Below are positions 16,095 through 64,000 of a DNA stretch of 64,000 bases, in pieces (the stretch's first letter is position 1; each line of letters begins with the position of its first letter). Below the pieces are notes generated by a model. It worked only from the letters and a program-made list of their open reading frames with translations, was not told where the DNA came from and did no database searches. The DNA is taken from positions 202,843,081 to 202,907,080 of the forward strand of contig CM035846.1 of assembly GCA_020510985.1 (NCBI GenBank), in the 5' to 3' direction. Made by a program: the position numbers and the translations under genes. The stretch comes from Pholidichthys leucotaenia. Its lineage: Eukaryota.

Positions 16095-16420
16095 TGAGAG
16101 GATAATAATAATGGATTAGATTTATATGGCGCTTTACATGTCAAGTGGCATCTCAAAGCCACTTGACATGTAAATGTCAAACCGTTGTGTCCGTGGGCAA
16201 GACACAACGGTAGGATGGCTGGAGAGAGTGGGAGTCGAACCGCCAACTCTCTGGTTATTGAACGACCCGCTCTACCTCCTGTGCAGCTGCCGCCCGCATC
16301 TCCCTCCCCTGTTCCATTTTTTCTGAGCACCAAGCTGGACGGCAGGAAGTTCCATTTTTATATGGTCTTTGGCATGACCTGGCTGTGGGGCGGATGCTCT
16401 TCCTCCAGCTCATCACTCTG
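16095..16420 (-). mobile_element. Two adjacent tRNA-derived SINE pieces in minus orientation. 16095-16300 has an ..agcgccatataaatctaatccattattattat tail and a tRNA-like head. 16300-16420 is the second family, as at 26380-27000.
   Basis: The reverse complement of 16185-16300 (ggcggcagctgcacaggaggtagagcgggtcgttcaataaccagagagttggcggttcgactccc) parallels the SINE head at 52530-52620. 16310-16390 matches the caccaagctagaaggcgagaagtaccatttttatatggt body seen at 26490-26540. Confidence 0.55.
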
Positions 16421-17699: not shown

Positions 17700-19510
17700 G
17701 TACGCTGCAGCCTTTGGGATCAGTGTGGTCATAGTCGGAATGTATTGTTGCCCGAAAAGACCAAAGACTACAATTCAGTCGAAAAACTACTGAGTCAGAG
17801 GTGTGTTATTTTGTTGTGCTACGGAGCTCAATTCTTAATGTGTTATTGCCATTATAAGGTCTGCTAGGAAATAACGGGGACATATTATCCAATTTTTCCA
17901 TTTGATAGTGTCCAGGAGTGTTAATAAGAAGTCTTTGACATGCTTTGGCCAAAACACCAAGGGGTTGGAATATTGCAGCACCATTTTCCACCCAGATGAA
18001 GCATCCTTCCTCTGAATGACCCGTTTCCATGTGCTTCTTTAATTCTAATGAACTGTGTGATTCCATGCTTCTCGTTGGCTAACAAATGTAAAATAGGATG
18101 AATATGAGAATGTTGAAGTCTAAACAAAGCATCATTGGGGCTGAGAGGGGGGGTTAGTAGTTGATAAGACAGGACAGTATCTGGGGTATTCAACCCAGCA
18201 ACAAGCGTGAATAAGAGAATTCAGGGTTCCCTTAGCCAGAAGCTTCCGTTTAAGCTAGGCTAGCTATCAGTGAGAATAGAAGTCTGTCGTGACCATGTCA
18301 TGGATTTTCTTTACATTATAAAATATTCCTTGTTGATCTGGTGAATAAATAGGTACACAGCCAGAGGTGCCTTTTCTGGGTATTTATTTACGTCTTTGCC
18401 AAGAAGGGAAAGTGTCACGCAGCACTGCACACAGGCAGTGCTGTGGAAAATTTCAAGCCTCAGAGCAGAGTTTGAACACAATGGGCCAAACAGATGAGCA
18501 TTGTTTTGAGAACACGGAGTGAGCGGTCTGTCAGAGCTACATCTCAGAGATACAAATGTTCTGTCACAATGTTCAAGGCTCCTTTGACTCTTCGCTGTCT
18601 CGTGGAAAAGGTACTGAGTGTAATTTCATTTATGATTACAGGAGAAAGAATGAACGGACAATAAAAAAAATCCATAACACCCAAAATATATACATAAGCT
18701 AGAATAATGTAGGATATGTAATTTACTGTGGATTATTAAAATACCTGGGAACATTGATGTCTAGTGGTGTGACTAGGTCTGACAGTGGAGAGCCATAAGT
18801 TGCACCATCTCATGGCACTTAGCTAAAGATGCTAATCACCAAATCTACTGGGTCCTGCTGGACAAGAAAAAAATGACAAAATATGCCAGAATGATAAAAG
18901 ATATGTAAATGACTGTATATTAATGAGGCTGCTGGGAACACAGATGTCTGGTGAAATGCCTTAGTTATAGTGATGAGCCAGAAAAACCCCAGGTGTGCCA
19001 CTGAGTTGGCTCACTAGTGGCACTCTAGTGCCATGCTCAAAATGTCCACTCACTCCCTACTCCCTATATAGTGAATTCAAATGTAGTGGACTATATAGTG
19101 AACTCAGTAAAACAATAAAAAAGTGAACTTTTGGACACTACTCAGCTTATTTTCTTGGCACTGTTAATGACATCATCATGGTGAGACAGTAAAACGTAAC
19201 AGATTAATGGTGTTAAAAAGTGAATATATGTATTTTGTGGTAAATGTATATTAAATCAAATTGCTTTTACTTTATTTTTTTTTCCACAATATCTTTATTG
19301 AACCTTTTTTTTTTTTTTTAACAAACATGATACAAACAATCAAACACTAACACTAAAGTACTACAAAAAAAAAAAAAAATGCACTAAAAACACCAACAAC
19401 CACCAACAAAATCAAGTCTTCAACAATGCTCCTCTGTTTAGTCTAGACAATCCAATACATAAGTATACATATTATGTTCACCAGTTTGGAATTTACAAGG
19501 TCCACACACA

Positions 19511-22500
19511 TCATTCACCTTCTTCTTCAAGAGTTATGTTTAAATTTTTTACATAATCAATAAAAGGTCTCCATATATTCTCAAACACAATTTCCTTTGA
19601 TTTTAGTATATATGTTATTCTTTCTAATGGAAGGTTTGTTAACATCTGTCTTAACCACTGAGTCACATCTGGTCTATGAGTCTTTTTCCATAATAGTGCA
19701 ATACATTTTTTGGCATTAAGCAAACTGAGGTCTATGAATGTTCTTTCACTTTTATTAAAATTATGCTTTTCTGGGTACAGACCCAACAAAAACAGTTTAG
19801 GATTCAATATGATTTGTTTTGAGATTATTTTTTCAATTGTTACCCTCACCTCTTCCCAAAACATTCTTATTAATCTACATTCCCATAAACAATGAAATAG
19901 GGTTCCTTTACTTTCCATGCATTTTGTGCATGTATCTGGTATATTTTTGTTATATCTATTTAACTCCTCCGGTGTAACGTACATCCGCATTAACCATTTG
20001 AAATGTATCAATTTAAGGCGTGCATTTATTGATTTGGTTTGAGCTTCTGTACAAGCCAATTCCCATTGTTCCTCTGAAATTTCAATTTGCAGATCTTCTT
20101 TCCAGTAGTTTAATCTTTTCAGTGAATTTTCACTTGAAGATAGTGTCAGTGAGTTATAAAACTCTGAAATAATACCCTTTCTTTTACTATCTTTCATCAT
20201 CATTTTTTCCAAGGATGAATAAATAGGTCGAGTGAGAGCTTTATTTTGATTTGATCGAATAAAGTTTCTAAGTTGAAGATATTTAAAAAAATGTGTTCTA
20301 TTGAGATTAAATTTGATCCTCAGCTCTTCAAAAGACATTATGTTGTCTGCACATGGCAAATATAAATCCTGAATCTTTTGTATCCCTTTTAAATTCCATA
20401 CTTTAAATACAGCGTCCGCTCTCCCTGGTTTAAAATATTGATTACCCCATATTGGACTAAATTGTGACAATAACTGTGGTTCTTTTAAATAGTTTTTAGC
20501 TTCACACCATATTTTGGTCATATGCTTTACAAATGGATTTTTAACTTGTTTTTGTAATTTTTTTGCCGAATCTGAGTATATGAATATGGGAAGAGGTAAA
20601 GGTAAATTGTATGATTCCATTTCAGTCCAGTGAGGGAGATCATTTGATGAAAAATAATATGTCATAGACCTCAGTTGTGCCGACCAATAATACAACATAA
20701 AATTTGGACATTTCAGACCTCCACGATCAAATGGTAAATATAATAAAGACAAACGTAATCTAGCCCTCCTGTTGTTCCATATAAATTCCACTAACTTTTT
20801 TTTTATTCTTGAGAATAGATCTAAAGGTGGTGATAAGGGAATGTATTGAAATAAATAAAGTATTTTAGGTAAAATATTACTTTTAAGTATATTGATTCTC
20901 CCGATCATCGACATTGGTAGTGACATCCATCTCTGAGTTAACTCATTGATATCTGACATTAAGGCTTCATAGTTGACACTGGCGACTGATTCTAGCTTAG
21001 GCATAATTTGGATTCCTAAATATTTAAACTGATTTACAACATTGAATTGATTTACCTCAGGGGCTGGGTAATTTCTCTGGGTCTCATTTAGCATTAATAT
21101 TGAAGATTTAGTTTTATTTATTTTATATCCTGATATTTCCCCAAAATTCTTTATTAAATTCAACAAGGTTGGAATTGATTTTTTTAGATTCGACATAAAC
21201 AAAATTATGTCATTGGCGTACAGGGAGATTTTATGTTCTGTTGGTCCAACTTTAATTCCATATATTTGTGAATGTAAACGTATCGCTATCGCTAAAGGTT
21301 CAATTGCCATAGTAAACAGTAAAGGTGAAAGTGGACAGCCTTGTCGACATCCTCTATTGATTTTTATTGGTTTTGAAATATTGTTATTTGTTAGGATTTC
21401 TGCTGTAGCATTATTGTATATTATTTGAACCCATTTTATGAAATTATTTCCAAGTCCAAACCTTTGTAGGACTTCAAAAAGAAAGGGCCATTCAACTCTA
21501 TCAAAGGCCTTTTCGGCGTCCAATGATAGGAGAGCTGTATCCGGTGCTTCTTTATTAAAATAAATAATATTAAATAGTCTTCTTACATTATGGAAGCCTT
21601 GTCTACCCTTTATAAAGCCATTCTGATCTCGATTAATAATATTTGGTAAAATTTCTTGTATTCGTCTTGCTAAAATTTTACAGATTATCTTAAGGTCGGC
21701 GTTTAATAGGCTTATTGGTCTCATATTTTCACATTTATTAGAGGGCTTACCTGGTTTTGGCAGCAGTATAATTAAGGCATTATTTATGTATGATGGTAAA
21801 TTATTATTTTGAAATGCTTCTAAAACCATTTCCAAAAAAGGTTTTATTAATTTATTCTTAAATTTTTTATAAAGGTCAACTGGAAGACCATCTGGTCCTG
21901 CACTTTTTCCTGATTTCATATTATCAATGGCTAGCCCAACTTCTTCTTGACTAATTTTAGAATCCAATATCTCCCTGTTTTCATTTGGAATACACGGTAT
22001 AGATAGTTCGTTCAAAAACCCATTTAGTTTTGTTAAATCAGGTTCATTTTTGGTATCATATAATTTTTCATAGTAATCTCTAAAGGCTCTATTAATTTCT
22101 AAAGGATCTATAACTACCTGTCCGTTACTTATAATACTGGTAATTGGTGTTTTAATTTCCAATTGTTTAATCTGCCATGCTAATAATTTTCCCGATTTTT
22201 CACCTTGTTCATAAAAAGATTGTTTCAATCTTAGAAGACTCGAGGCAGCTCTATTCGCTGATTTTTTGTCGTATTCAGCTCTCAAAATCAGTAATTCATT
22301 CTCCAACCTTGGGTCACTTCCTGCATACACTTTTTCCTGAAGATTTTTTATTTTATGTTCCAATTTAGCTCTCTCCTCTCGAGTCTTCTTAGATTTTGAT
22401 CCTGTATAACTAATAATATGTCCCCTAATAAAAGCTTTGAAAGCCTCCCACTTTACACATGCTGATGTTTGTGTAGTATTGATGTCAAAGAACTCGTCTA

Positions 22501-23314
22501 TCTGTTTTTCTATATACTTGACAAATTCCTCATCCTGAAGCCATTTATGCTGAAATTGCCATCTACCTGATTCCTTTGTCAATTTTTTATCTACATATAT
22601 TAGACAACAGGGTGCATGATCAGAGATCACGATGTTATCATAAAAGCAGTATTGAATCTTGGACCTTAATTCTGTGGAAATCAAAAAATAATCAATACGT
22701 GAGAATGTCTTGTAGGTACTGGAATAACAAGAATAGGCTTTAACTTGTGGTTTCATTTCTCTCCATATATCTAACAATCTCAATTCTTTCATAAAATGAT
22801 TAATAGTCATCCTACATCCAATGTGCGTACAATCCAGTCCTGTTGATCTATCCACACCTGGATTCAATGTACAATTAAAATCCCCTGCTATTATATGTTG
22901 CCCTGTAAGTGATGATAAGATGAGAAATAAATTAGCAAAGAACTTCTGATCATCTATATTGGGACCATATAAGTTCACAAGATTTATATTTTCTAATAGC
23001 AAAGAACCTTGAATGATTACATATCTTCCAAATTTGTCTCCAATTACATTTTTCACCTGAAAAGGAACTGATTTATGTATGAGAGTCATAACTCCCCTGG
23101 CTCGGGATGAAAATGAAGAGGTGAATACACTTCCCTGCCATCTACTCCTAATTCTTTTAACATCCTCCTCTATCAGATGAGTTTCTTGTAAAAACACAAT
23201 TCTTGAACCCATGTCCTTTATTTTATTCATAACTTGTTTAAGTTTTTTTAAATTTTGTAGACCTCTGCAATTCCATGAAGTTAAATTAAGGTTAACTCTT
23301 TGGTCCATGATCAA
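19511..23314 (-). CDS. L1 ORF2p (endonuclease + reverse transcriptase), copy A. The frame is intact but the catalytic motif is YAND rather than YADD.
   Basis: Continuous 1267-aa ORF. The codon gcc-aat-gac in the minus-strand reading near 21235 gives A-N-D. Copy B has gcc-gat-gat (A-D-D) at 34216-34224. Confidence 0.85.
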
Positions 23315-23782
23315 TAGAGAGTTTGGGATTACCTTGCAGTGTAAACATGCTCATACAGAGAAGCAAAAACATGAGTGGTTGAACATTCATCCTACAAACT
23401 ACACACAAACAAATTTCCCCTTCCCACACTTGTGGCAAACCCCCCAAAATCAAAAGAAAAATTCTGTCTCCCGATATAGCCATCGACCGTTCCACACCCA
23501 CGGGGAACAGCCTAAGCCACTCCTTCTTCATCCTCCCAATCACCCTAACTCTACTGCTTTTAATGACGTAACATTAACTCTCCTCTGTAGTTTTCCAACT
23601 TAACTCCAAAATTTTTAACAACTTTGTACATCATAGTTTGTTTTTTTTTTTTGTTTGTTTTGTTTTTGTTTTGTTTTTTTAATATATAATACAATCTATA
23701 TTTTGTAAACTTACTATTTACTTCAAGTCAGTCAGATGCCTGTGCAAATGCTTAATTATTCTACCTTATATTTTGTTCATGC

Positions 23783-24709
23783 TTAGCTCCCACCAGTCTC
23801 TTCTTCTTCTTTGATCTTCTTGATGAACTCCTGCACCTCCTCTGGGGTCTTGAAGATGTGGGTTCTGCCCTCATACGTGGTCAGCAGTCTCGCAGGATAG
23901 ATTACACCATGACGAATCCCAAGGTTGCGCAGCTCCTTACGTACGGGATCAAACTGCTTCCTCAATTGCTGGATTCCTGTGGCCAAATCTGGGTAGAACC
24001 GCACCTGCTGGTCCTGGTGTTTAATCTCTCCTTTAGCACGTGCAGCGTTGAAGATCTTCATCCTGTCTCTGTTGCTAAGAAACTTCATAATTAAGGTCCT
24101 CGGCGGTCCCTTATCTCTCCGTGGGCCAATACGATGTGCTTTTTCCAGAACCACTGCTGATTGCAACTCCTCGCTGCCCAGCACCTCCGGAATCCACTTT
24201 TCCAGAAAGGAACATACGTCCCGACCTTCTGATTCCTCTGGAAGACCCACCAGCCTCAAATTATTCTGTCTCGACCGAGATTCCAAATCCAAAATATTAT
24301 CTTCCAGAGATTTATTTTTTTTTTCCAAAGTGCGCACCTTTAATTGAAGACGGGTGACGTCATCTTCAGCACTAGCGAGACGGAGCTCCATCTGCGCCGT
24401 TCGTTCTACACAGTCACCCAATTCCTTTCTTATTCCTTCCAGCGCTGTCATAATCCCATCAAATCTAGAGGAAAAGTCCGCTCTCATTGAACTCATGGCA
24501 GCCATCAGCGCATCTGCGCCATTCCACGCAGAAATCGCACCGCCGCCAGCCTCCTCCGCCATATATGGAGCCTTGTTTGCTGCGTCACAGACCTGAAAGT
24601 CCGTTAATTTGGACTGTTTCGGCGGCTCGCTTTTTCCTTTTCCTGGTTTTCCAGCCTTAGGCTTCGCCGACATATCCTCGCCCAAATGCTGGGATACGTT
24701 CTGTCCCAA
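23783..24709 (-). CDS. L1 ORF1p-like protein, copy A (intact, 308 aa)
   Basis: Coiled-coil segment (LRLASAEDDVTRLQLKVRTLEKKNKSLEDNILDLESRSRQNNLRLVGLPE) typical of L1 ORF1 proteins. Confidence 0.8.
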   Translation of the reverse strand: MGQNVSQHLGEDMSAKPKAGKPGKGKSEPPKQSKLTDFQVCDAANKAPYMAEEAGGGAISAWNGADALMAAMSSMRADFSSRFDGIMTALEGIRKELGDCVERTAQMELRLASAEDDVTRLQLKVRTLEKKNKSLEDNILDLESRSRQNNLRLVGLPEESEGRDVCSFLEKWIPEVLGSEELQSAVVLEKAHRIGPRRDKGPPRTLIMKFLSNRDRMKIFNAARAKGEIKHQDQQVRFYPDLATGIQQLRKQFDPVRKELRNLGIRHGVIYPARLLTTYEGRTHIFKTPEEVQEFIKKIKEEEETGGS

Positions 24710-24862
24710 ATGAGAGAGTTATTTGCCGATTTTTTTTCTCCAGGAGCAGAGCAGAGCGAGACACGTCCGTCCTACGTGGCAGCCATAACCGGAAGTCGCT
24801 TTTACTTTATTAATAAATAAAGATACCTTAAGGTAGTTTATTTTGTGATGTGAAGCGCTGTT

Positions 24863-26185
24863 CTAGGTTTACATGGACACAAGTAACTGGATTAAAAGCC
24901 TGATCGGAATAAAAATGCTTCATGTAAACACGCCAGTCTGAATATTCTAACCTGATCACGCTCATTCGGATCAAAATTTCATTCCGACTGGCCACATTTA
25001 CATGGGCAAAATTTCTTCAATCTGATTACAATTCAGATCAGAATTTTACTGTTTACATGGATCCTGAAAAAGCTGATCTGATTATGACGTGCGTTTCCAT
25101 GTGTCACACGTTTGAATGGAATAAATCATTTTGACATGCGCACGTCAACATTTCAACATTCAAAAAATAGAAGAAGAAGCAACTTCCGGTGTTAGCAAGC
25201 CCCGCTTCGTGTCGAAATGGACCTGTATTGTGTTATTCAGACTGTACTTTTGCTTCTGCTGGTCTCCGTAATGAAGCTACAAGTACATACTTCTGCATAT
25301 AACGAACAGAGGGAGACAGCTGGACGATACGGACCAGTTTTGTTTTACTCCTGCTATGTTTTCCGCTAGCTGCTGCTAAGGCGGAAATACTGTATGTCAC
25401 GTCGACTTGCAGCTGGTGTACAGACATGCACAGTAAACATATTTTCTGCCCTACGTTCGAAATAAGTGTTTTCATGCGCACCATTCGGATTAACAATCGG
25501 CATAACCCACCCCTCTCAATCGGAATGAAATTTTGATCCGAATGAGCGTGATCGGGTTAGAATATTCAGATTGCCATGTTTTACATGAAGCATTTTTATT
25601 CCGATCAGGCTTTTAATCCGGTTACTTGTGTCCATGTAAACATAGCCATTGAGAGGGGTGGGTTATGCCGATTGTTAATCGGAATGGTGCGCATGAAAAC
25701 ACTTATTCCGAATGTAGGGCAGAAAATATGTTTACTGTGCATGTCTGTACACCAGCTGCAAATCGACGTGACGTACAGTATTTCCGCCTTAGCAGCAGCT
25801 AGCGGAAACCATAGCGGGAGTAAAACAAAACTGGTCTGTATCGTCCTCCTGTCTCCCTCTGTTCGTCATATGCAGAAGTATGTACTTGTAGCTTCATTAC
25901 AGAGACCAGCAGAAGCAAAAGTAAGTCTGAATAACACAATACAGGTCCATTTCGACACGAAGCGGGGCTTGCTAACACCGGAAGTTGCTTCTTCTTCTAC
26001 TGTTTTCGGAATGTTGAAATGTTGATGTGCACATGTCAAAATGATTTATTCCGTTCAAACATGTGACACATGGAAACGCACGTCCTAATCAGATCAGCTT
26101 TTTCAGGATCCATGTAAACAGTAAAATTCTGATCTGAATTGTAATCAGATTGAAGAAATTTTGCCCATGTAACTGTGGCCGTTTG
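24863..26185. repeat. Block-wise inverted structure P-Q-P'-Q': P 24863-24987, Q 24988-25520, P' 25521-25645, Q' 25646-26185
   Basis: 25521-25645 is the reverse complement of 24863-24987, and 25646-26185 is the reverse complement of 24988-25520. Identity is roughly 93-97% by eye. Mirrored ORFs 25233-25496 (-) and 25576-26025 (+) encode the same peptide because of this symmetry. Confidence 0.7.
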
Positions 26186-26379: not shown

Positions 26380-26610
26380 TTCCTGTTGCAGCCCTCCCCA
26401 TTTATCCGAGCTTGGGATCAGCACGGGGAGTACACTGTGCTCCCCCTGTGGCTGAGTAACCAACTTTCCTTCTCCCATTCTATTAAACTGAGCAGCACCA
26501 AGCTAGAAGGCGAGAAGTACCATTTTTATATGGTTTTTGGTAAGACATGGCTGGGGCTTGAACCCACAACCCCCCGGTTGTTGGGACAGATGTTCTACCT
26601 CTAGGCCACC
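26380..26610 (-). mobile_element. tRNA-derived SINE copy
   Basis: Body caccaagctagaaggcgagaagtaccatttttatatggtttttggtaagacatggctggggcttgaacccacaacccc, with the tRNA-like part reverse-oriented. Confidence 0.55.
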
Positions 26611-52527: not shown

Positions 52528-52900
52528 TGGGCAGCAGTGGCTCAGGAGATTGAGTGGGTCGTCCAGTGACCTGAGGGGTTGGTGGTTTGAATCCCGCTCT
52601 CCCCAGCTATCCTGCCATTGTGTCCCTGGGCAAGACACTTTATCCACCTTGCCTCCAATGTCCATGACACTGGATACGAATGTGTATAAATGTTCAGCAG
52701 TGGGTGGAGAGGCTGTTGGTGCAGATTGGCAGCCACGTTTCTGTCAGTCTGGCCCAGGGCAGCTGTGGCTACAGAAGTAGCTTACCACTACCATTGTCTG
52801 TCTGTGGAGTGAATGAATAATGTATCCATTGTAGAGCATCTTTGAGTGTCCATGAAAAGCGCTATATAAATCCGATGCATTATTATTATTGTATAGTTGA
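52528..52900 (+). mobile_element. tRNA-derived SINE, common teleost type with an agcgctatataaat...attattattatt tail
   Basis: Head gggcagcagtggctcaggagattgagtgggtcgtccagtgacctgaggggttggtggtttgaatcccgctctcccc. Body ..tgtccctgggcaagacactttatccacc. Tail agcgctatataaatccgatgcattattattatt. Confidence 0.75.
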
Positions 52901-57243: not shown

Positions 57244-58960
57244 TTATGTAAACCATGAAAAAAAAATCCTGCAAGACAAAACATGACACTTGATGGTTCT
57301 GCCTCTGATGCTCCGGAATCGTTTGCCAGATGGCAGAAGTTCAAAGTGTTTATGCAGAGGGTGAGAACGGTCCTTGACAATGTTCAGTGCCCTGCTCCTA
57401 CAACGGTTCTGAAAAAGTTCTTGGACAGAGGGGAGGGAGACTCCAATTACCCTCTCAGCTCCCTTAACTATCCTCTGCAGGACTTTTTTGTCTGACATAC
57501 TGCAGCTGGAGTACCATGTAGCAATGCAGTACATCAGAACACTCTCCACCACACCTCTGTAGAAGGTCCTGAGGATGCAGATGGGGAGAAAGGCTTGTTT
57601 GAGTTTTCTCAAGAAGTGCAGTCTCTGCTGGGCCCGCTTCCTGATCCCCAAGGCATTCTTGCTCCAGGTCAGGTCCTGCGAGATCTGCACTCCGAGGAAC
57701 TTGATGTTCTCCACTAAACGGCCGCCGATGCTGAGGGGGACGTGTTCAGGCTGTGACCGCCGGAAGTCGATAATCATCTCCTTCGTTTTGTCCACGTTGA
57801 GCACCAGATTGTTTTCCCTGCACCAGCCCTCCAGGTCTCTCACTTCTTCCCTGTACATTGATTCCTCATCCCTCTGAATAAGTCCCACCACCGTGATGTC
57901 GTCTGCAAACTTAATAATCTGGTTCCCCTCGTGTCTGGGTACACAGTCATGTGTTAGAAGTGTAAACAACAGTGGACTGAGTACGCAGCCTTGAGGGGAT
58001 CCGGTGCTCAGCGTGACAGAGTTGGAGATGTTGTTTCCAACCCGGACAGACTGAGGTCTCTCAGTCAGGAAATCCAGGATCCAGAGACATGTGGTGGTGT
58101 TCAGACCAAGGAGTAATTTCTCCATCAGTCTCTGGGGAATAATGGTGTTGAATGCTGAGCTGAAATCAATGTACAGGAGTCTGGCGTAGGTGTCTTTCTG
58201 ATCCAGGTGGGTGATGACAGAGTGCAGGGTGGTGACTATAGCATCCTCCGTGGAGCGGTTTGAACGATATGCAAACTGGAGCAGGTCATGTGATGCAGTG
58301 GGCCAGGCTGTGATGTGTGGTTTGACAAGCTGTTCAAAACACTTCATCACAATTGGTGTCAGTGCAACAGGACGATAGTCATTCAGACAGGACACAACTG
58401 GTTTCTTTGCCACCGGTACTATGATAGAGGTCTTGAAGCATCTGGGAACGATGGCCTGACTCAGGGAGATGTTATAAATGTCAGTCAGTACATCCGCCAA
58501 CTCGCTCGCGCAGTCTCAGAGCACACATCCCGGGATGTTGTTCGGACCTGCAGCTTTACGTGGGTTGACCCTGGTTAGGGTCCTCCGTGTGTCCGCTGTG
58601 TTGATGGTAAAAGCTGGTCTGGCCAATGGTGGGGATGGGCCAGCCCTCCCTCTGATTGTCGGGTTTGATGCTTCAAAACGTGCAAAGAAGTCATTGAGCC
58701 TGTCTGGAAGCGAAGCGTCGTCATCATCGACCCCCTGCCTAGACTTATAGCCCATCAGTGTCCGAACTCCCTGCCACATCTGCTTGGTGTTCCTAGTGTC
58801 ACAGAGGTGTCCCTGGATTTTCTCCGCATAGGCGTGCTTTGCCGTCTTAATTCCCTTTGACAGCGCAGACCTGGCTGAGCGGAGGGTGATCCTGTCCTTC
58901 GCTCTGAAGGCTGCATCTCTGGCTGTAAGCAGCGAGCGCACCTCTGCGGTCATCCAGGGC
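57244..58960 (-). mobile_element. 5-prime-truncated Rex1/CR1-like non-LTR retrotransposon (RT domain, no endonuclease)
   Basis: ORFs 57244-58500 ([39 protein letters not shown]) and 58516-58953 upstream on the same strand. Confidence 0.75.
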
Positions 58961-60925: not shown

Positions 60926-63426
60926 CCATCCATCCATCCATCCATCTTCTACCGCTTTTCCGGAGGTCCGGGTCGCGGAGGCAGCAGTTCAAGCAGAGAA
61001 GCCCAGACTTCCCTCTCCCCAGCCACCTGCTCCAGCTCTTCAGAGGGGATACCAAGGCGTTCCCAGACTAGCTGGGAGACATAGTCTCTCCACCGAGTCC
61101 TGGGTCTGCCCCGGGGTCTCCTCCCAGTGGGACGTGCCTGAAACACCTCAAGTGGGAGGCGTCCAGGAGGCATCCTAATCAGATGCCCATACCACCTCAA
61201 CTGACTCCTTTCAATGTGGAGGAGCAGCGGTTCTACTCTGAGCCTCTCCCGGATGACTGAGCTCCTCACCCTATCTCTGAGGGTGAGTCCAGCAATCCTA
61301 CGGAGAAAGCTCATTTCAGCCGCTTGTATCCGCGATCTCGTTCTTTCGGTCATTACCCAAAGCTCGTGACCATAGGTGAGAGTAGGAACGTAGATTGACT
61401 GGTAAATCGACAGCTTTGCCTTAGAACTAAGCTCCCTCTTCACCACAACAGACCGGTACAACGTCCGCATCACTGCAGATGCTGCTCCAATCCGTCTGTC
61501 GATCTCTCGCTCCATTTTCCCCTCACTCGTGAACAAGACCCCAAGATACTTAAACTCCTCCACTTGGGGCAGGAGCCTGTCCCCAACCCGGAGAGGACAA
61601 TCCACCTTTTTCCGGCTGAGGACCATGGACTCGGACTTGGAGGTGCTGATTCTCATCCCAGCCGCTTCACACTCAGCGGCAAACCGTCCCAGCAAGAGCT
61701 GTAGGTCATTGCTGGATGAAGCCAACAGGACAACATCATCTGCAAACAACAGAGATGAGATCCTGTGGTCACCAAGCATGACACACTCCATTCCCTGGCT
61801 GCGCCTAGAAATCCTGTCCATAAAAATTATGAACAGGACCGGTGACAAAGGGCAGCCCTGGCGGAGTCCAACTCTCACTGGGAATGACTCCGACCGAGTG
61901 TTGGCAATGCGAACTAAACTCTCACAACGGTCGTACAGAGACCGAATAGCTCGTAACAACAAGCCCGATACCCCATACTCCCGAAGCACCCCCCACAAAA
62001 ATCCACGAGGGACGCGGTCAAATGCCTTCTCCAAGTCCACAAAACACATGTAAACTGGTTGGGCAAACTCCCACGAACCCTCAAGAATTCTCGAGAGGGT
62101 AAAGAGCTGGTCCGATGTGCCACGGCCAGGACGAAAACCACATTGCTCCTCCTGAATCCGAGGTTCGACCAACGGCCGGACTCTCCTCTCCAGTACCTTG
62201 GCATAGACCTTCCCAGGGAGGCTGAGGAGTGTGATCCCTCTAAAGTTGGAGCACACCCTCCGGTCCCCTTTTTTGAAGAGAGGAACCACCACCCCGGTTT
62301 GCCATGCCAAAGGCACTGCCCCCGACCTCCACGCAATGTTGCAGAGGCGTGTCAACCATGACAACCCAACAACATCCAGGGCCTTGAGGTACTCGGGGCG
62401 AATCTCGTCCACCCCCGGGGCCCGGCCACCAAGGAGATTTTTAACCACCTTGGCGACCTCAGCCCCTGTGATAGGCGAGTCATCCCCCTCGTCCCCAAAC
62501 CCTGCTTCCTCTGTGGAAGGCGTATCAGTGGGATTGAGGAGATCCTCGAAGTATTCCTTCCACCGCCCGACGATATCCCCAGTTGAAGTCAACAGTGTCC
62601 CATCCGCACCATACACAGTGTGGACGGGGAGCTGCTTTCCCCTCCTGAGCCGCCGAACAGTTTGCCAGAATCTCTTTGAAGCCGACCGAAAGTCTTGTTC
62701 CATGGCCTCACCGAACTCCTCCCATACCCGGGTTTTTGCTTCAGCAACCACCCGAGCTGCACTCCGCTTGGCCTGCCGGTACACCTCAGCTGCTTCGGGA
62801 GTCCCACAAGCCAACCAAGCTTGATAGGACTCCTTCTTCAGCTTAATGGCCCCCCTCACCACTGGTGTCCACCACTTGGTTCGGGGGTTGCCACCACGAG
62901 ATGCACCGACCACCTTGCGGCCGCAGCTCTGGGCTGCCGCTTCAACAACAGAGGTGGAGAACATGGCCCATTCAGACTCCATGTCTCCAGACTCCCTCGG
63001 AATGTGGTTGAAGTTCTTCCGGAGGTGGGAGTTGAAGACCTCCCGGACAGGGGCCTCAGCCAGACGCTCCCAGCACACCCTCACTATACGTTTGGGTCTA
63101 CCAGGTCTGAATGGCTTCCTCCCCTGCCATCGGATCCAACTCACCACCAGGTGGTGATCAGTTGACAGCTCTGCACCTCTCTTTACTCGGGTGTCCAAGA
63201 CATACGGTCGCAGGTCTGATGATACGATAACAAAATCGATCATCGACCTGCGGCCTAGGGTGTCCTGGTGCCAGGTGCACATATGGACACCCTTATGCTT
63301 GAACATGGTGTTCGTTATAGACAGACTGTGGTTAGCACAGAAGTCCAATAACTGAACACCACTCGGGTTCAGATCGGGCAGGCCGTTCCTCCCAATCACC
63401 CCCCTCCAGGTTTCACTGTCGTTGCC
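60926..63426 (-). mobile_element. 5-prime-truncated L2/CR1-like LINE (C-terminal half of the APE endonuclease plus a complete RT). 3-prime (CCAT)n tail; inserted into a Tc1 copy with 11-bp TSD caaataaagtt.
   Basis: ORF 60949-63549 (866 aa). Its first ~40 residues are read-through into the Tc1 flank; the rest is EN (..[31 protein letters not shown]) plus RT ([11 protein letters not shown]). caaataaagtt occurs at 60915-60925 and again at 63427-63437, both inside Tc1 sequence that is otherwise contiguous. Confidence 0.85.
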
Positions 63427-64000
63427 CAAATAAAGTTCAGCTGTTCTAATAGGCTTTTCCTGACATTTGGGTCGTCGCATCTTACAGCACAAGCCATGGT
63501 CCGCAGAGAGCTTCCAAAGCATCAGAGGGATCTCATTGTTTAAAGGCATCAGTTAGGATAAGGGTACAAAAGAATTTCCAAGGCATTAAATATACCATGG
63601 AACACAGTGAAGACAGTCATCATCAAGTGGAGAAAATATGGTACAACAGTGAAGCATGATAATGACGCCATCATGCTTTGAGACTGTTTTTCTTCAGCGG
63701 GAACTGGGACCTTAGTCAAGGTGGAGGAAATTATGAACGGTTCCAAATACCAGTCAGTGTTGGCACAAAACCTTCAAGCTTCTGCTAGAAAGCTGAAGAT
63801 GAAGAGGAGCTTCCACTTTCAGCATGGCAATGACCCAAAGCACACATCCAAATCAACAAAAGAATGGTTTTACCAGAAGAAGATTATAGTTTTGGAATGG
63901 CCCAGCCAGAGTCCAGACCTGAGTCTGATCAAACATCTGTGGGGTGATCTGAAGAGGGCTGTGCACAGGAAATGCCCTCGCAATCTGACAGATTTGGAGC
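63427..64000 (+). mobile_element. Tc1 (outer-family) copy, internally deleted. It continues beyond the window; its left part is at 60830-60925.
   Basis: Collinear with 38170-38290 and 40380-40700. The transposase ORF is present (..[50 protein letters not shown]). Confidence 0.7.

What the first reader, a model, noticed from the sequence alone, without database searches (positions are those of the whole stretch)
24863..26185. Unusual block-wise inverted structure P-Q-P'-Q' abutting the L1-A 5' end
The arrangement is not a simple palindrome. It is P-Q followed by the reverse complement of P and then the reverse complement of Q (blocks of 125 bp and 530 bp, ~95% identical). It can be read two ways: a 780-bp element with 125-bp TIRs (P-Q-P') plus an extra Q', or a foldback element with 530-bp arms (Q-P'-Q') plus an extra P. 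Either reading implies a rearrangement such as template switching or nested foldback insertion. The mirrored ORFs (25233-25496 on the minus strand and 25576-26025 on the plus strand, both ..MVRMKTLI.NVGQKICLLCMSVHQLQ.DVTYSISALAAASG..) follow from the symmetry and are probably non-coding. L1-A is inserted about 65 bp to the left. The locus will form strong cruciforms or hairpins.
Basis: seen in the sequence. Interest (0 to 1): 0.5.

Follow-up and report, generated by a model that had tools for sequence, protein, structure and literature searches.

The report
One small transposon inserted into another
The odd P-Q-P'-Q' pattern is most simply explained as two copies of one ~658-bp non-coding DNA transposon in a fish genome, one copy inserted backwards into the other, which is an ordinary and well-documented kind of event.

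Summary
The block pattern is real. P 24863-24990 matches the reverse complement of 25517-25645 at 94%. Q 24990-25520 matches the reverse complement of 25648-26180 at 95.7%.

It needs no template switching. P and Q begin with the same ~22-nt motif (GGCYAYRTTTACATGGRCAMAA). The stretch Q+P' (24990-25647, 658 bp) is therefore a unit with short terminal inverted repeats (17 of 22 positions match).

Joining the remaining pieces (24863-24989 plus 25648-26180) and reverse-complementing them gives a second copy. It aligns with the first from end to end at 95.9% identity. The only junction-specific difference is three extra bases at the join: ACT and ATT flank the inner copy, where the uninterrupted copy has a single ATT. 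That is a 3-bp target-site duplication. The outer copy is flanked by GTT/GTT.

The locus is thus a non-autonomous TIR transposon inserted in opposite orientation into another copy of its own family. The 3-bp duplications and GG-initial termini suggest PIF/Harbinger (Tourist-like), but this is unproven.

The mirrored ORFs are non-coding. A ~530-bp hairpin is predicted as a by-product.

No further copies could be found with the collections available, so copy number and the family consensus remain untested. Interest is low.

The parts
24990..25647 (+). Inner copy of the ~658-bp non-autonomous TIR transposon (blocks Q + P'), complete
   Evidence: It has inverted termini, and its flanks rejoin into a second copy of the family.
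24990..25011 (+). Inner copy, left TIR: GGCCACATTTACATGGGCAAAA
   Evidence: 17 of 22 positions are complementary to 25626-25647. Binomial p = 1.3e-6. Only 6 of 200000 random window positions at the same spacing match as well.
25626..25647 (-). Inner copy, right TIR (reverse complement GGCTATGTTTACATGGACACAA)
   Evidence: (I6)
24987..24989 (.). [quoted passage not shown]
   Evidence: The alignment of the inner copy with the rejoined outer copy shows exactly 3 extra bases at the junction.
25648..25650 (.). [quoted passage not shown]
25518..25520 (-). The same target site, uninterrupted, in the inner copy (AAT on the + strand, ATT on the other). It serves as the 'empty site' reference.
   Evidence: The inner copy reads CTCTCAA---TCGG where the outer copy reads CTCTCAATAGTCGG.
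24863..24989 (-). Outer copy, P-end portion (block P), 127 bp. This copy lies in the opposite orientation to the inner copy.
   Evidence: Matches 25517-25645 in reverse complement at about 94%. Collinear after rejoining.
25651..26180 (-). Outer copy, Q-end portion (block Q')
   Evidence: 95.7% identical to 24990-25520 in reverse complement.
26159..26180 (-). Outer copy TIR at the Q end (reverse complement GGCCACAGTTACATGGGCAAAA)
24863..24882 (+). Outer copy TIR at the P end (CTAGGTTTACATGGACACAA). It lacks the terminal GG seen on the inner copy.
24860..24862 (.). Putative 3-bp target-site duplication of the outer copy, left (GTT)
   Evidence: GTT/GTT is a perfect match only for boundaries 24863..26180. 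The chance of such a match is about 1/64 per boundary tried.
26181..26183 (.). Putative 3-bp target-site duplication of the outer copy, right (GTT)
19275..24797 (-). Neighbouring full-length L1 ('L1-A'). It is an independent insertion with its own 12-bp TSD GCTTTTACTTTA (19263-19274 and 24798-24809) and is not part of the compound element.

Best explanation
The locus holds two copies of one family of small (~658 bp), non-coding, cut-and-paste (class II, TIR) transposon in a teleost genome. The older copy (24863-24989 plus 25648-26180) lies in one orientation. A second copy (24990-25647) was inserted by a transposase into a site 127 bp from one end of the first copy, in the opposite orientation, duplicating 3 bp of target (ATT). 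Writing the unit as Q+P', the host copy reads P+Q' on the + strand. Inserting Q+P' at the P|Q' point gives P-Q-P'-Q'.

Shown by the sequence: the short TIRs, the collinear rejoining of the flanks, and the 3-bp duplication.

Inferred: (a) A trans-acting transposase made the insertion. It is most likely of the PIF/Harbinger type, because both insertions have 3-bp flanking repeats and the termini start with GG. (b) The repeated subterminal motifs are protein-binding sites. TTACATG occurs four times per unit, always within 75 nt of an end, and TCNGAAT occurs eight times. (c) The long Q/Q' hairpin is an accidental by-product.
For: (1) P and Q both begin with the same motif. The inner unit's two ends are complementary at 17 of 22 positions at exactly the block boundaries (binomial p = 1.3e-6; 6 of 200000 random placements do as well).
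(2) The rejoined outer halves, reverse-complemented, align with the inner unit from first to last base: 629 of 656 identical, 95.9%, K2P 0.042. At the junction there are exactly 3 extra bases.
(3) The inner copy is flanked by ACT/ATT, and the uninterrupted copy has a single ATT there. The outer copy is flanked by GTT/GTT.
(4) Divergence in P (6.3%) and Q (3.6%) is not significantly different (Fisher p = 0.21), as expected if each copy is one unit.
(5) 12 of 17 transitions are CpG-associated, which fits neutral decay of old inserts.
(6) TTACATG occurs 4 times per unit, all subterminal, against about 0.19 expected per 658 bp from the window.
(7) There is no coding capacity.
(8) The window is TE-dense teleost DNA containing L1, Gypsy and Tc1 elements.
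(9) MITE multimers, nested insertions and self-insertions are documented. The review PMC5172404 reports Jiang & Wessler 2001 as finding more than 10% of 6,600 rice MITEs in multimers.
(10) Harbinger elements with 3-bp TSDs occur in teleosts (PMC9179366).
Against: Only these two copies were available. There is no third copy in the window and none in the searchable collections. The canonical unit, copy number and TSD rule are therefore inferred from a single nested pair.

The inner TSD has one mismatch (ACT against ATT). The outer copy lacks the terminal GG at its P end. Its GTT/GTT TSD therefore requires a 2-bp terminal loss, or is coincidental (about 1/64 per boundary tried).

For the PIF/Harbinger assignment specifically, the duplicated triplets (ATT, GTT) are not the usual TWA. 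No autonomous partner or transposase was found. The resemblance of the terminus to mPing's GGCCAGTCACAATGG is recalled from memory and was not tested.
Confidence: 0.85

Rival explanations
1. A single element with 125-bp TIRs (P-Q-P'), or a foldback with 530-bp arms (Q-P'-Q'), was rearranged by replication template switching or a similar non-transposase event, adding the extra block.
For: The blocks can formally be parsed this way. The P-Q-P' parse also has 3-nt flanks with one mismatch (GTT/ATT).
Against: It does not explain why Q starts with the same 22-nt terminal motif as P. It does not explain why the extra block begins exactly 3 bp after P' ends, or why P+Q' rejoin into a full collinear copy. 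The Q-P'-Q' parse has no TSD of 2-10 bp. Template switching typically yields P-Q-Q'-P' palindromes with microhomology junctions, not this order (my knowledge).
Confidence: 0.04
2. P-Q-P'-Q' is itself a canonical, amplified family. A nested dimer arose once and was then mobilised as a 1.3-kb unit using the outer termini.
For: The outer copy retains a good TIR at the Q end and most of one at the P end, and is flanked by GTT/GTT. MITE dimers that become new families are known in the literature (my knowledge).
Against: No other copy of any kind was seen. The outer P-end terminus lacks GG. The origin would still be the nested insertion described above.
Confidence: 0.07
3. Assembly or sequencing artefact, such as a chimeric foldback read or mis-join.
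For: Inverted duplications are a known artefact class in long-read assemblies (my knowledge).
Against: The arms differ by about 4%, with CpG-biased transitions and small indels. The order is not a simple foldback. The junctions coincide with TIRs and a TSD.
Confidence: 0.01
4. An inversion breakpoint within a tandem (satellite) array of a ~658-bp unit.
For: ...PQ|P'Q'... could be read as the junction of two oppositely oriented arrays.
Against: There is no tandem array. TRF finds none, there are no direct repeats, and unique flanks begin at 24862 and 26181. The 3-bp duplication is not predicted by this model.
Confidence: 0.01

Closest known systems
Nested MITE multimers and self-insertions (Jiang & Wessler 2001, Plant Cell 13:2553, as summarised in PMC5172404)
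   Same: A small non-autonomous TIR element is inserted into another MITE, here one of its own family. The inner copy is complete with its own TSD. The host copy is split but collinear when rejoined. The copies arose by independent insertion events.
   Different: The documented cases are mainly from plants (rice, maize) and mosquito, whereas this one is in a teleost. Whether this family shows a self-insertion preference is unknown, because only one locus was seen.
PIF/Harbinger non-autonomous elements (Tourist-like MITEs such as mPing; zebrafish Harbinger3N_DR)
   Same: It has 3-bp flanking duplications at both insertions and short TIRs beginning with GG. It has repeated subterminal motifs that could bind a Myb-like ORF1 protein. 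The superfamily is present in teleosts (PMC9179366; PMC2836001).
   Different: The duplicated triplets are ATT and GTT, not TWA (TTA/TAA). At 658 bp it is at the large end for a MITE. No transposase or Myb-like partner was identified, and terminal similarity to a catalogued Harbinger was not tested.
Foldback elements and long-TIR elements
   Same: The compound locus contains long inverted arms (530 bp) around a short loop and is predicted to fold into a very stable hairpin.
   Different: The arms are not intrinsic to one element. They are the overlapping parts of two oppositely oriented copies. There is no TSD at the foldback boundaries, and no subrepeat-built arms.
Mu killer-type inverted transposon duplications that trigger silencing (maize; my knowledge)
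   Same: It is an inverted arrangement of two copies of one transposon that would give a long hairpin RNA if transcribed.
   Different: There is no evidence here of transcription or small RNAs. Mu killer arose by partial inverted duplication, not by nested transposition.

Membership tests
Non-autonomous class II TIR transposon (MITE-like) | Terminal inverted repeats at both ends of the unit | tested here: met
   24990-25011 against 25626-25647: 17 of 22 complementary, p about 1e-6. The outer copy carries the same termini.
Non-autonomous class II TIR transposon (MITE-like) | Target-site duplication of fixed length flanking the element | tested here: met
   Inner copy: ACT/ATT, with a single ATT in the uninterrupted copy. 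Outer copy: GTT/GTT.
Non-autonomous class II TIR transposon (MITE-like) | No coding capacity and small size | tested here: met
   658 bp. The longest open frames have no Pfam match and no relatives among 5.8 billion proteins. Codon differences are 10 non-synonymous against 2 synonymous.
Non-autonomous class II TIR transposon (MITE-like) | Many dispersed copies in the genome | not testable with these tools
   The source genome is not available. There are only 2 copies in the 64-kb window. Scans of public collections gave only chance hits in bacterial or viral contigs.
Nested self-insertion (MITE multimer) | Host-element halves rejoin into a collinear full-length copy once the insert and one TSD copy are removed | tested here: met
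   End-to-end global alignment at 95.9% identity, with exactly 3 extra bases at the junction.
PIF/Harbinger superfamily (Tourist-like) | 3-bp TSD | tested here: met
   Exactly 3 extra bases at the inner insertion, and a 3-bp GTT/GTT at the outer one.
PIF/Harbinger superfamily (Tourist-like) | TSD sequence TWA (TTA/TAA) | tested here: not met
   The triplets are ATT (ACT) and GTT.
PIF/Harbinger superfamily (Tourist-like) | Termini align at positions 1-11 with a catalogued Harbinger (the Repbase rule, PMC4455052), or an autonomous partner encodes a DDE transposase plus a Myb-like protein | not testable with these tools
   Repbase and Dfam are not available, and no partner lies in the window. A literature search for the terminal sequences found nothing.
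CACTA/EnSpm (CMC) superfamily | Termini beginning CACTA/CACTG, with a 3-bp TSD | tested here: not met
   The termini are GGCCACAT.../GGCTATGT... The GG/CC must belong to the insert, because the flanks otherwise fail to reconstitute the target.
   Q-P'-Q' has no TSD of 2-10 bp. P-Q-P' has only GTT/ATT and leaves Q' unexplained. The arms are explained by two overlapping copies.

The most novel reading that the evidence does not exclude
The family may preferentially target its own copies. The insertion site (AAT|CGGAAT in unit orientation) abuts one of the repeated subterminal TCNGAAT motifs, which are plausible binding sites for the transposition proteins. A transposition complex tethered to these motifs in another copy could explain self-insertion. 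Opposite-orientation dimers such as this one would give ~530-bp hairpin RNAs if transcribed. Such RNAs could seed small-RNA silencing of the whole family, as Mu killer does, which would amount to a built-in self-limiting mechanism.
Probability: 0.05. Interest if true: 0.45.

Novelty: new member of a known kind. Interest (0 to 1): 0.15.

Why it matters
It matters mainly for annotation. The locus should be masked as two copies of one 658-bp TIR element (one complete, one split), not as a foldback, a long-TIR element or a rearrangement hotspot. The two mirrored ORFs should not be called genes.

The nested pair also works as a natural 'filled site against empty site' comparison. From one locus it gives the unit boundaries, the TIRs and the 3-bp TSD of an otherwise uncharacterised family.

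The long inverted arms could make the region fragile or a source of hairpin RNA, but nothing here shows that this happens.

Tried and rejected
1. Other copies in the window: sensitive BLASTN of the unit found none. The terminal-motif search gave only the four ends plus one chance-level 1-mismatch hit at 52847.
2. Other copies through proteins: the longest pseudo-ORF had no relatives among 5.8 billion proteins. I ran no further search on the other frames. The closest fish L1 in that collection is only 82% identical, so the source species is evidently not represented.
3. DNA scans of public collections. The metagenome scan gave one 24-nt chance match in a bacterial purN contig. The genome-contig scan gave one 26-nt chance match in a bacterial MAG. 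Viral scans gave 18-19-nt chance matches or nothing. These scans are now exhausted or uninformative.
4. A literature search for the terminal sequences gave no papers. Jiang & Wessler 2001 and Sinzelle et al. 2008 are not held in the library, so they are cited only through PMC5172404 and PMC2836001.
5. Rfam and tRNA scans of the window found nothing.
6. I fetched the contig of the closest L1 relative (L002, Logan SRR31175880). It contains no copy of the element.
7. Rejected models: tandem-array inversion, assembly artefact (4% divergence), CACTA termini, and hAT, Tc1 or piggyBac TSD lengths (exactly 3 extra bases).

Full report
**Observation.** The region was read directly and compared with itself on both strands (repeat finder; BLASTN). 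Only inverted matches exist.
- P 24863-24990 matches the reverse complement of 25517-25645 at 93.8-94.4% (E = 2e-52).
- Q 24990-25520 matches the reverse complement of 25648-26180 at 95.7% over 534 columns (E = 0).
- The order P-Q-P'-Q' is therefore real, at the coordinates given, and far beyond chance.

**Context.** The window is TE-dense eukaryotic DNA.
- Pfam finds L1-type ORF1 and ORF2, a Gypsy-type pol, several other reverse transcriptases and Tc1 transposase fragments.
- The L1 ORF2 is closest to teleost (percomorph) proteins: 82% to a Logan contig, and 56-62% to Poecilia, Oreochromis and Oryzias entries.
- No tRNA or Rfam family is present.
- L1-A occupies 19275-24797 on the minus strand and has its own 12-bp TSD, GCTTTTACTTTA.

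Block P and block Q begin with the same sequence.
- Q starts GGCCACATTTACATGGGCAAAA (24990-25011).
- The reverse complement of the end of P' is GGCTATGTTTACATGGACACAA (25626-25647).
- These match at 17 of 22 positions with no shift allowed (binomial p = 1.3e-6). Only 6 of 200000 random placements in the window at the same spacing do as well.
- Q+P' (24990-25647, 658 bp) is therefore a unit bounded by short terminal inverted repeats.

**The rest of the locus is a second copy.** I joined 24863-24989 to 25648-26180 and reverse-complemented the result.
- It aligns with the inner unit from the first base to the last: 629 of 656 identical, 95.9%, K2P 0.042.
- The only junction-specific difference is exactly three extra bases at the join. 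The inner copy reads CTCTCAA---TCGG and the rejoined outer copy reads CTCTCAATAGTCGG.
- On the + strand the inner copy is flanked by ACT (24987-24989) and ATT (25648-25650), while the uninterrupted copy has one ATT (25518-25520, other strand).
- This is the signature of a transposase-made 3-bp target-site duplication, with one later T>C change.
- The P/Q boundary is therefore nothing more than the insertion point.

**Systematic TSD test.** A test of TSDs of 2-10 bp at every conceivable parse shows the following.
- The whole compound (24863..26180) is flanked by a perfect GTT/GTT.
- The inner unit is flanked by ACT/ATT.
- The foldback parse Q-P'-Q' has no TSD.
- The P-Q-P' parse has GTT/ATT, but leaves Q' and the shared terminal motif unexplained.
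- One blemish: the outer copy's P end starts CTAGG... where the inner copy has GGCTATG.... Either two terminal bases were lost, or the GTT/GTT match is coincidental (about 1/64 per boundary tried).

**Further consistency checks.**
- Divergence is statistically the same in the P and Q portions (Fisher p = 0.21).
- 12 of 17 transitions are at CpG, as expected for neutral decay in a methylated vertebrate genome.
- The ~4% divergence also excludes a foldback assembly artefact.
- The L1-A/L1-B pair differs by only 1%, so the nested pair's common ancestor is older than the L1 activity.
- The core of the TIR, TTACATG, occurs four times per unit, always within 75 nt of an end. About 0.19 occurrences per 658 bp are expected from the window.
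- A second short motif, TCNGAAT, occurs eight times, mostly subterminal. These look like subterminal protein-binding repeats, which is an inference.

**Coding potential.** There is none.
- The longest frames (87-149 aa) have no Pfam match and no relative in a 5.8-billion-protein collection.
- They differ between copies by 10 non-synonymous and 2 synonymous codon changes.

**Hairpins.** Folded as single-stranded DNA, 24863-26180 gives -648.5 kcal/mol, with Q paired to Q' (~530 bp) and P' as the loop. A single unit folds only modestly (-92.9 kcal/mol, z = -6.2). The order A-B-A'-B' has pseudoknot topology. P/P' and Q/Q' therefore cannot both form in a nested structure, and the longer pair wins. 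The structure is a by-product of the opposite orientation of the two copies.

**Mechanism.** A non-autonomous cut-and-paste element was mobilised in trans and integrated into another copy of its family in the opposite orientation. The insertion, TIRs and TSD are shown by the sequence. The identity of the transposase is inferred.
- A 3-bp TSD occurs in PIF/Harbinger, CACTA/EnSpm-Chapaev, Zator and Academ (my knowledge).
- CACTA termini are excluded by the sequence.
- GG-initial short TIRs resemble PIF/Harbinger ends, such as mPing's GGCCAGTCACAATGG (recalled from memory).
- Harbingers with 3-bp TSDs are present in teleosts (PMC9179366; PMC2836001).
- Against this, the triplets ATT and GTT are not TWA, and no partner element was found.
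- I put PIF/Harbinger at roughly 50% and the nested-insertion reading at about 85%.

**Comparison with what is known.** MITEs inserted into MITEs, including self-insertions and dimers, are well documented. [quoted passage not shown] Repbase classifies non-autonomous DNA elements by termini and TSD (PMC4455052). That test could not be run here.

**What could not be done.** The window has no third copy. The metagenome, prokaryote-genome and viral collections gave only short chance hits. A related fish L1 contig has no copy. Copy number, the consensus, the true TSD rule and whether the dimer ever amplified as a unit therefore remain open.

**Verdict.** The proposed rearrangement is unnecessary. 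The locus is an ordinary nested insertion of one small DNA transposon into another copy of itself. Interest is low. The only mildly novel possibility is self-targeting through the subterminal motifs, with hairpin-RNA consequences, and it is unsupported at present.

Noticed in passing
window 19275-24797 (-) and 30641-36153 (+): Two full-length L1 copies, 99.0% identical, lie in inverted orientation 5.8 kb apart, and the finding sits between them. Each has its own TSD (12-bp GCTTTTACTTTA; 15-bp AAGTTGGTCCAAACG), so they are independent recent insertions. L1-A has intact ORF1 (308 aa) and ORF2 (1267 aa). In L1-B, ORF2 is split into 851 and 347 aa. These 5.5-kb inverted arms are a far larger substrate for inversion by recombination than the reported structure.
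   Followed up: partly
window 27809-28196, and 30400-30640 plus 36154-36509: Another interspersed repeat family is present as two inverted copies at about 84-87% identity. L1-B is inserted into one of them, which is a second nested insertion in the same neighbourhood.
   Followed up: no
window 26453-26585, 26840-26969, 16324-16389 and 27149-27226 (-): There are several ~100-130-bp copies (77-89% identical) of a short repeat containing GGGCTTGAACCCA-like sequence. This suggests a tRNA-derived SINE, although ARAGORN and Rfam call nothing.
   Followed up: no
window 42046-45294 (-): A long open Gypsy/Ty3-type pol (RT, RNase H, integrase; 1082 aa) lies in a GC-rich block (57% GC, against about 40% around it).
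   Followed up: no
window 57244-58500 (-) and 60949-63549 (-): Further reverse-transcriptase ORFs. One carries an ALKBH8_N-type domain after RVT_1, and the other is 866 aa with an endonuclease-RT domain. These are additional non-LTR retrotransposon families.
   Followed up: no
window 25518-25526 (unit positions ~529-537): The site used for the nested insertion directly abuts one copy of the subterminal TCNGAAT motif (AAT|CGGAAT). This may hint that insertion is guided by the element's own protein-binding sites. It rests on a single observation.
   Followed up: partly
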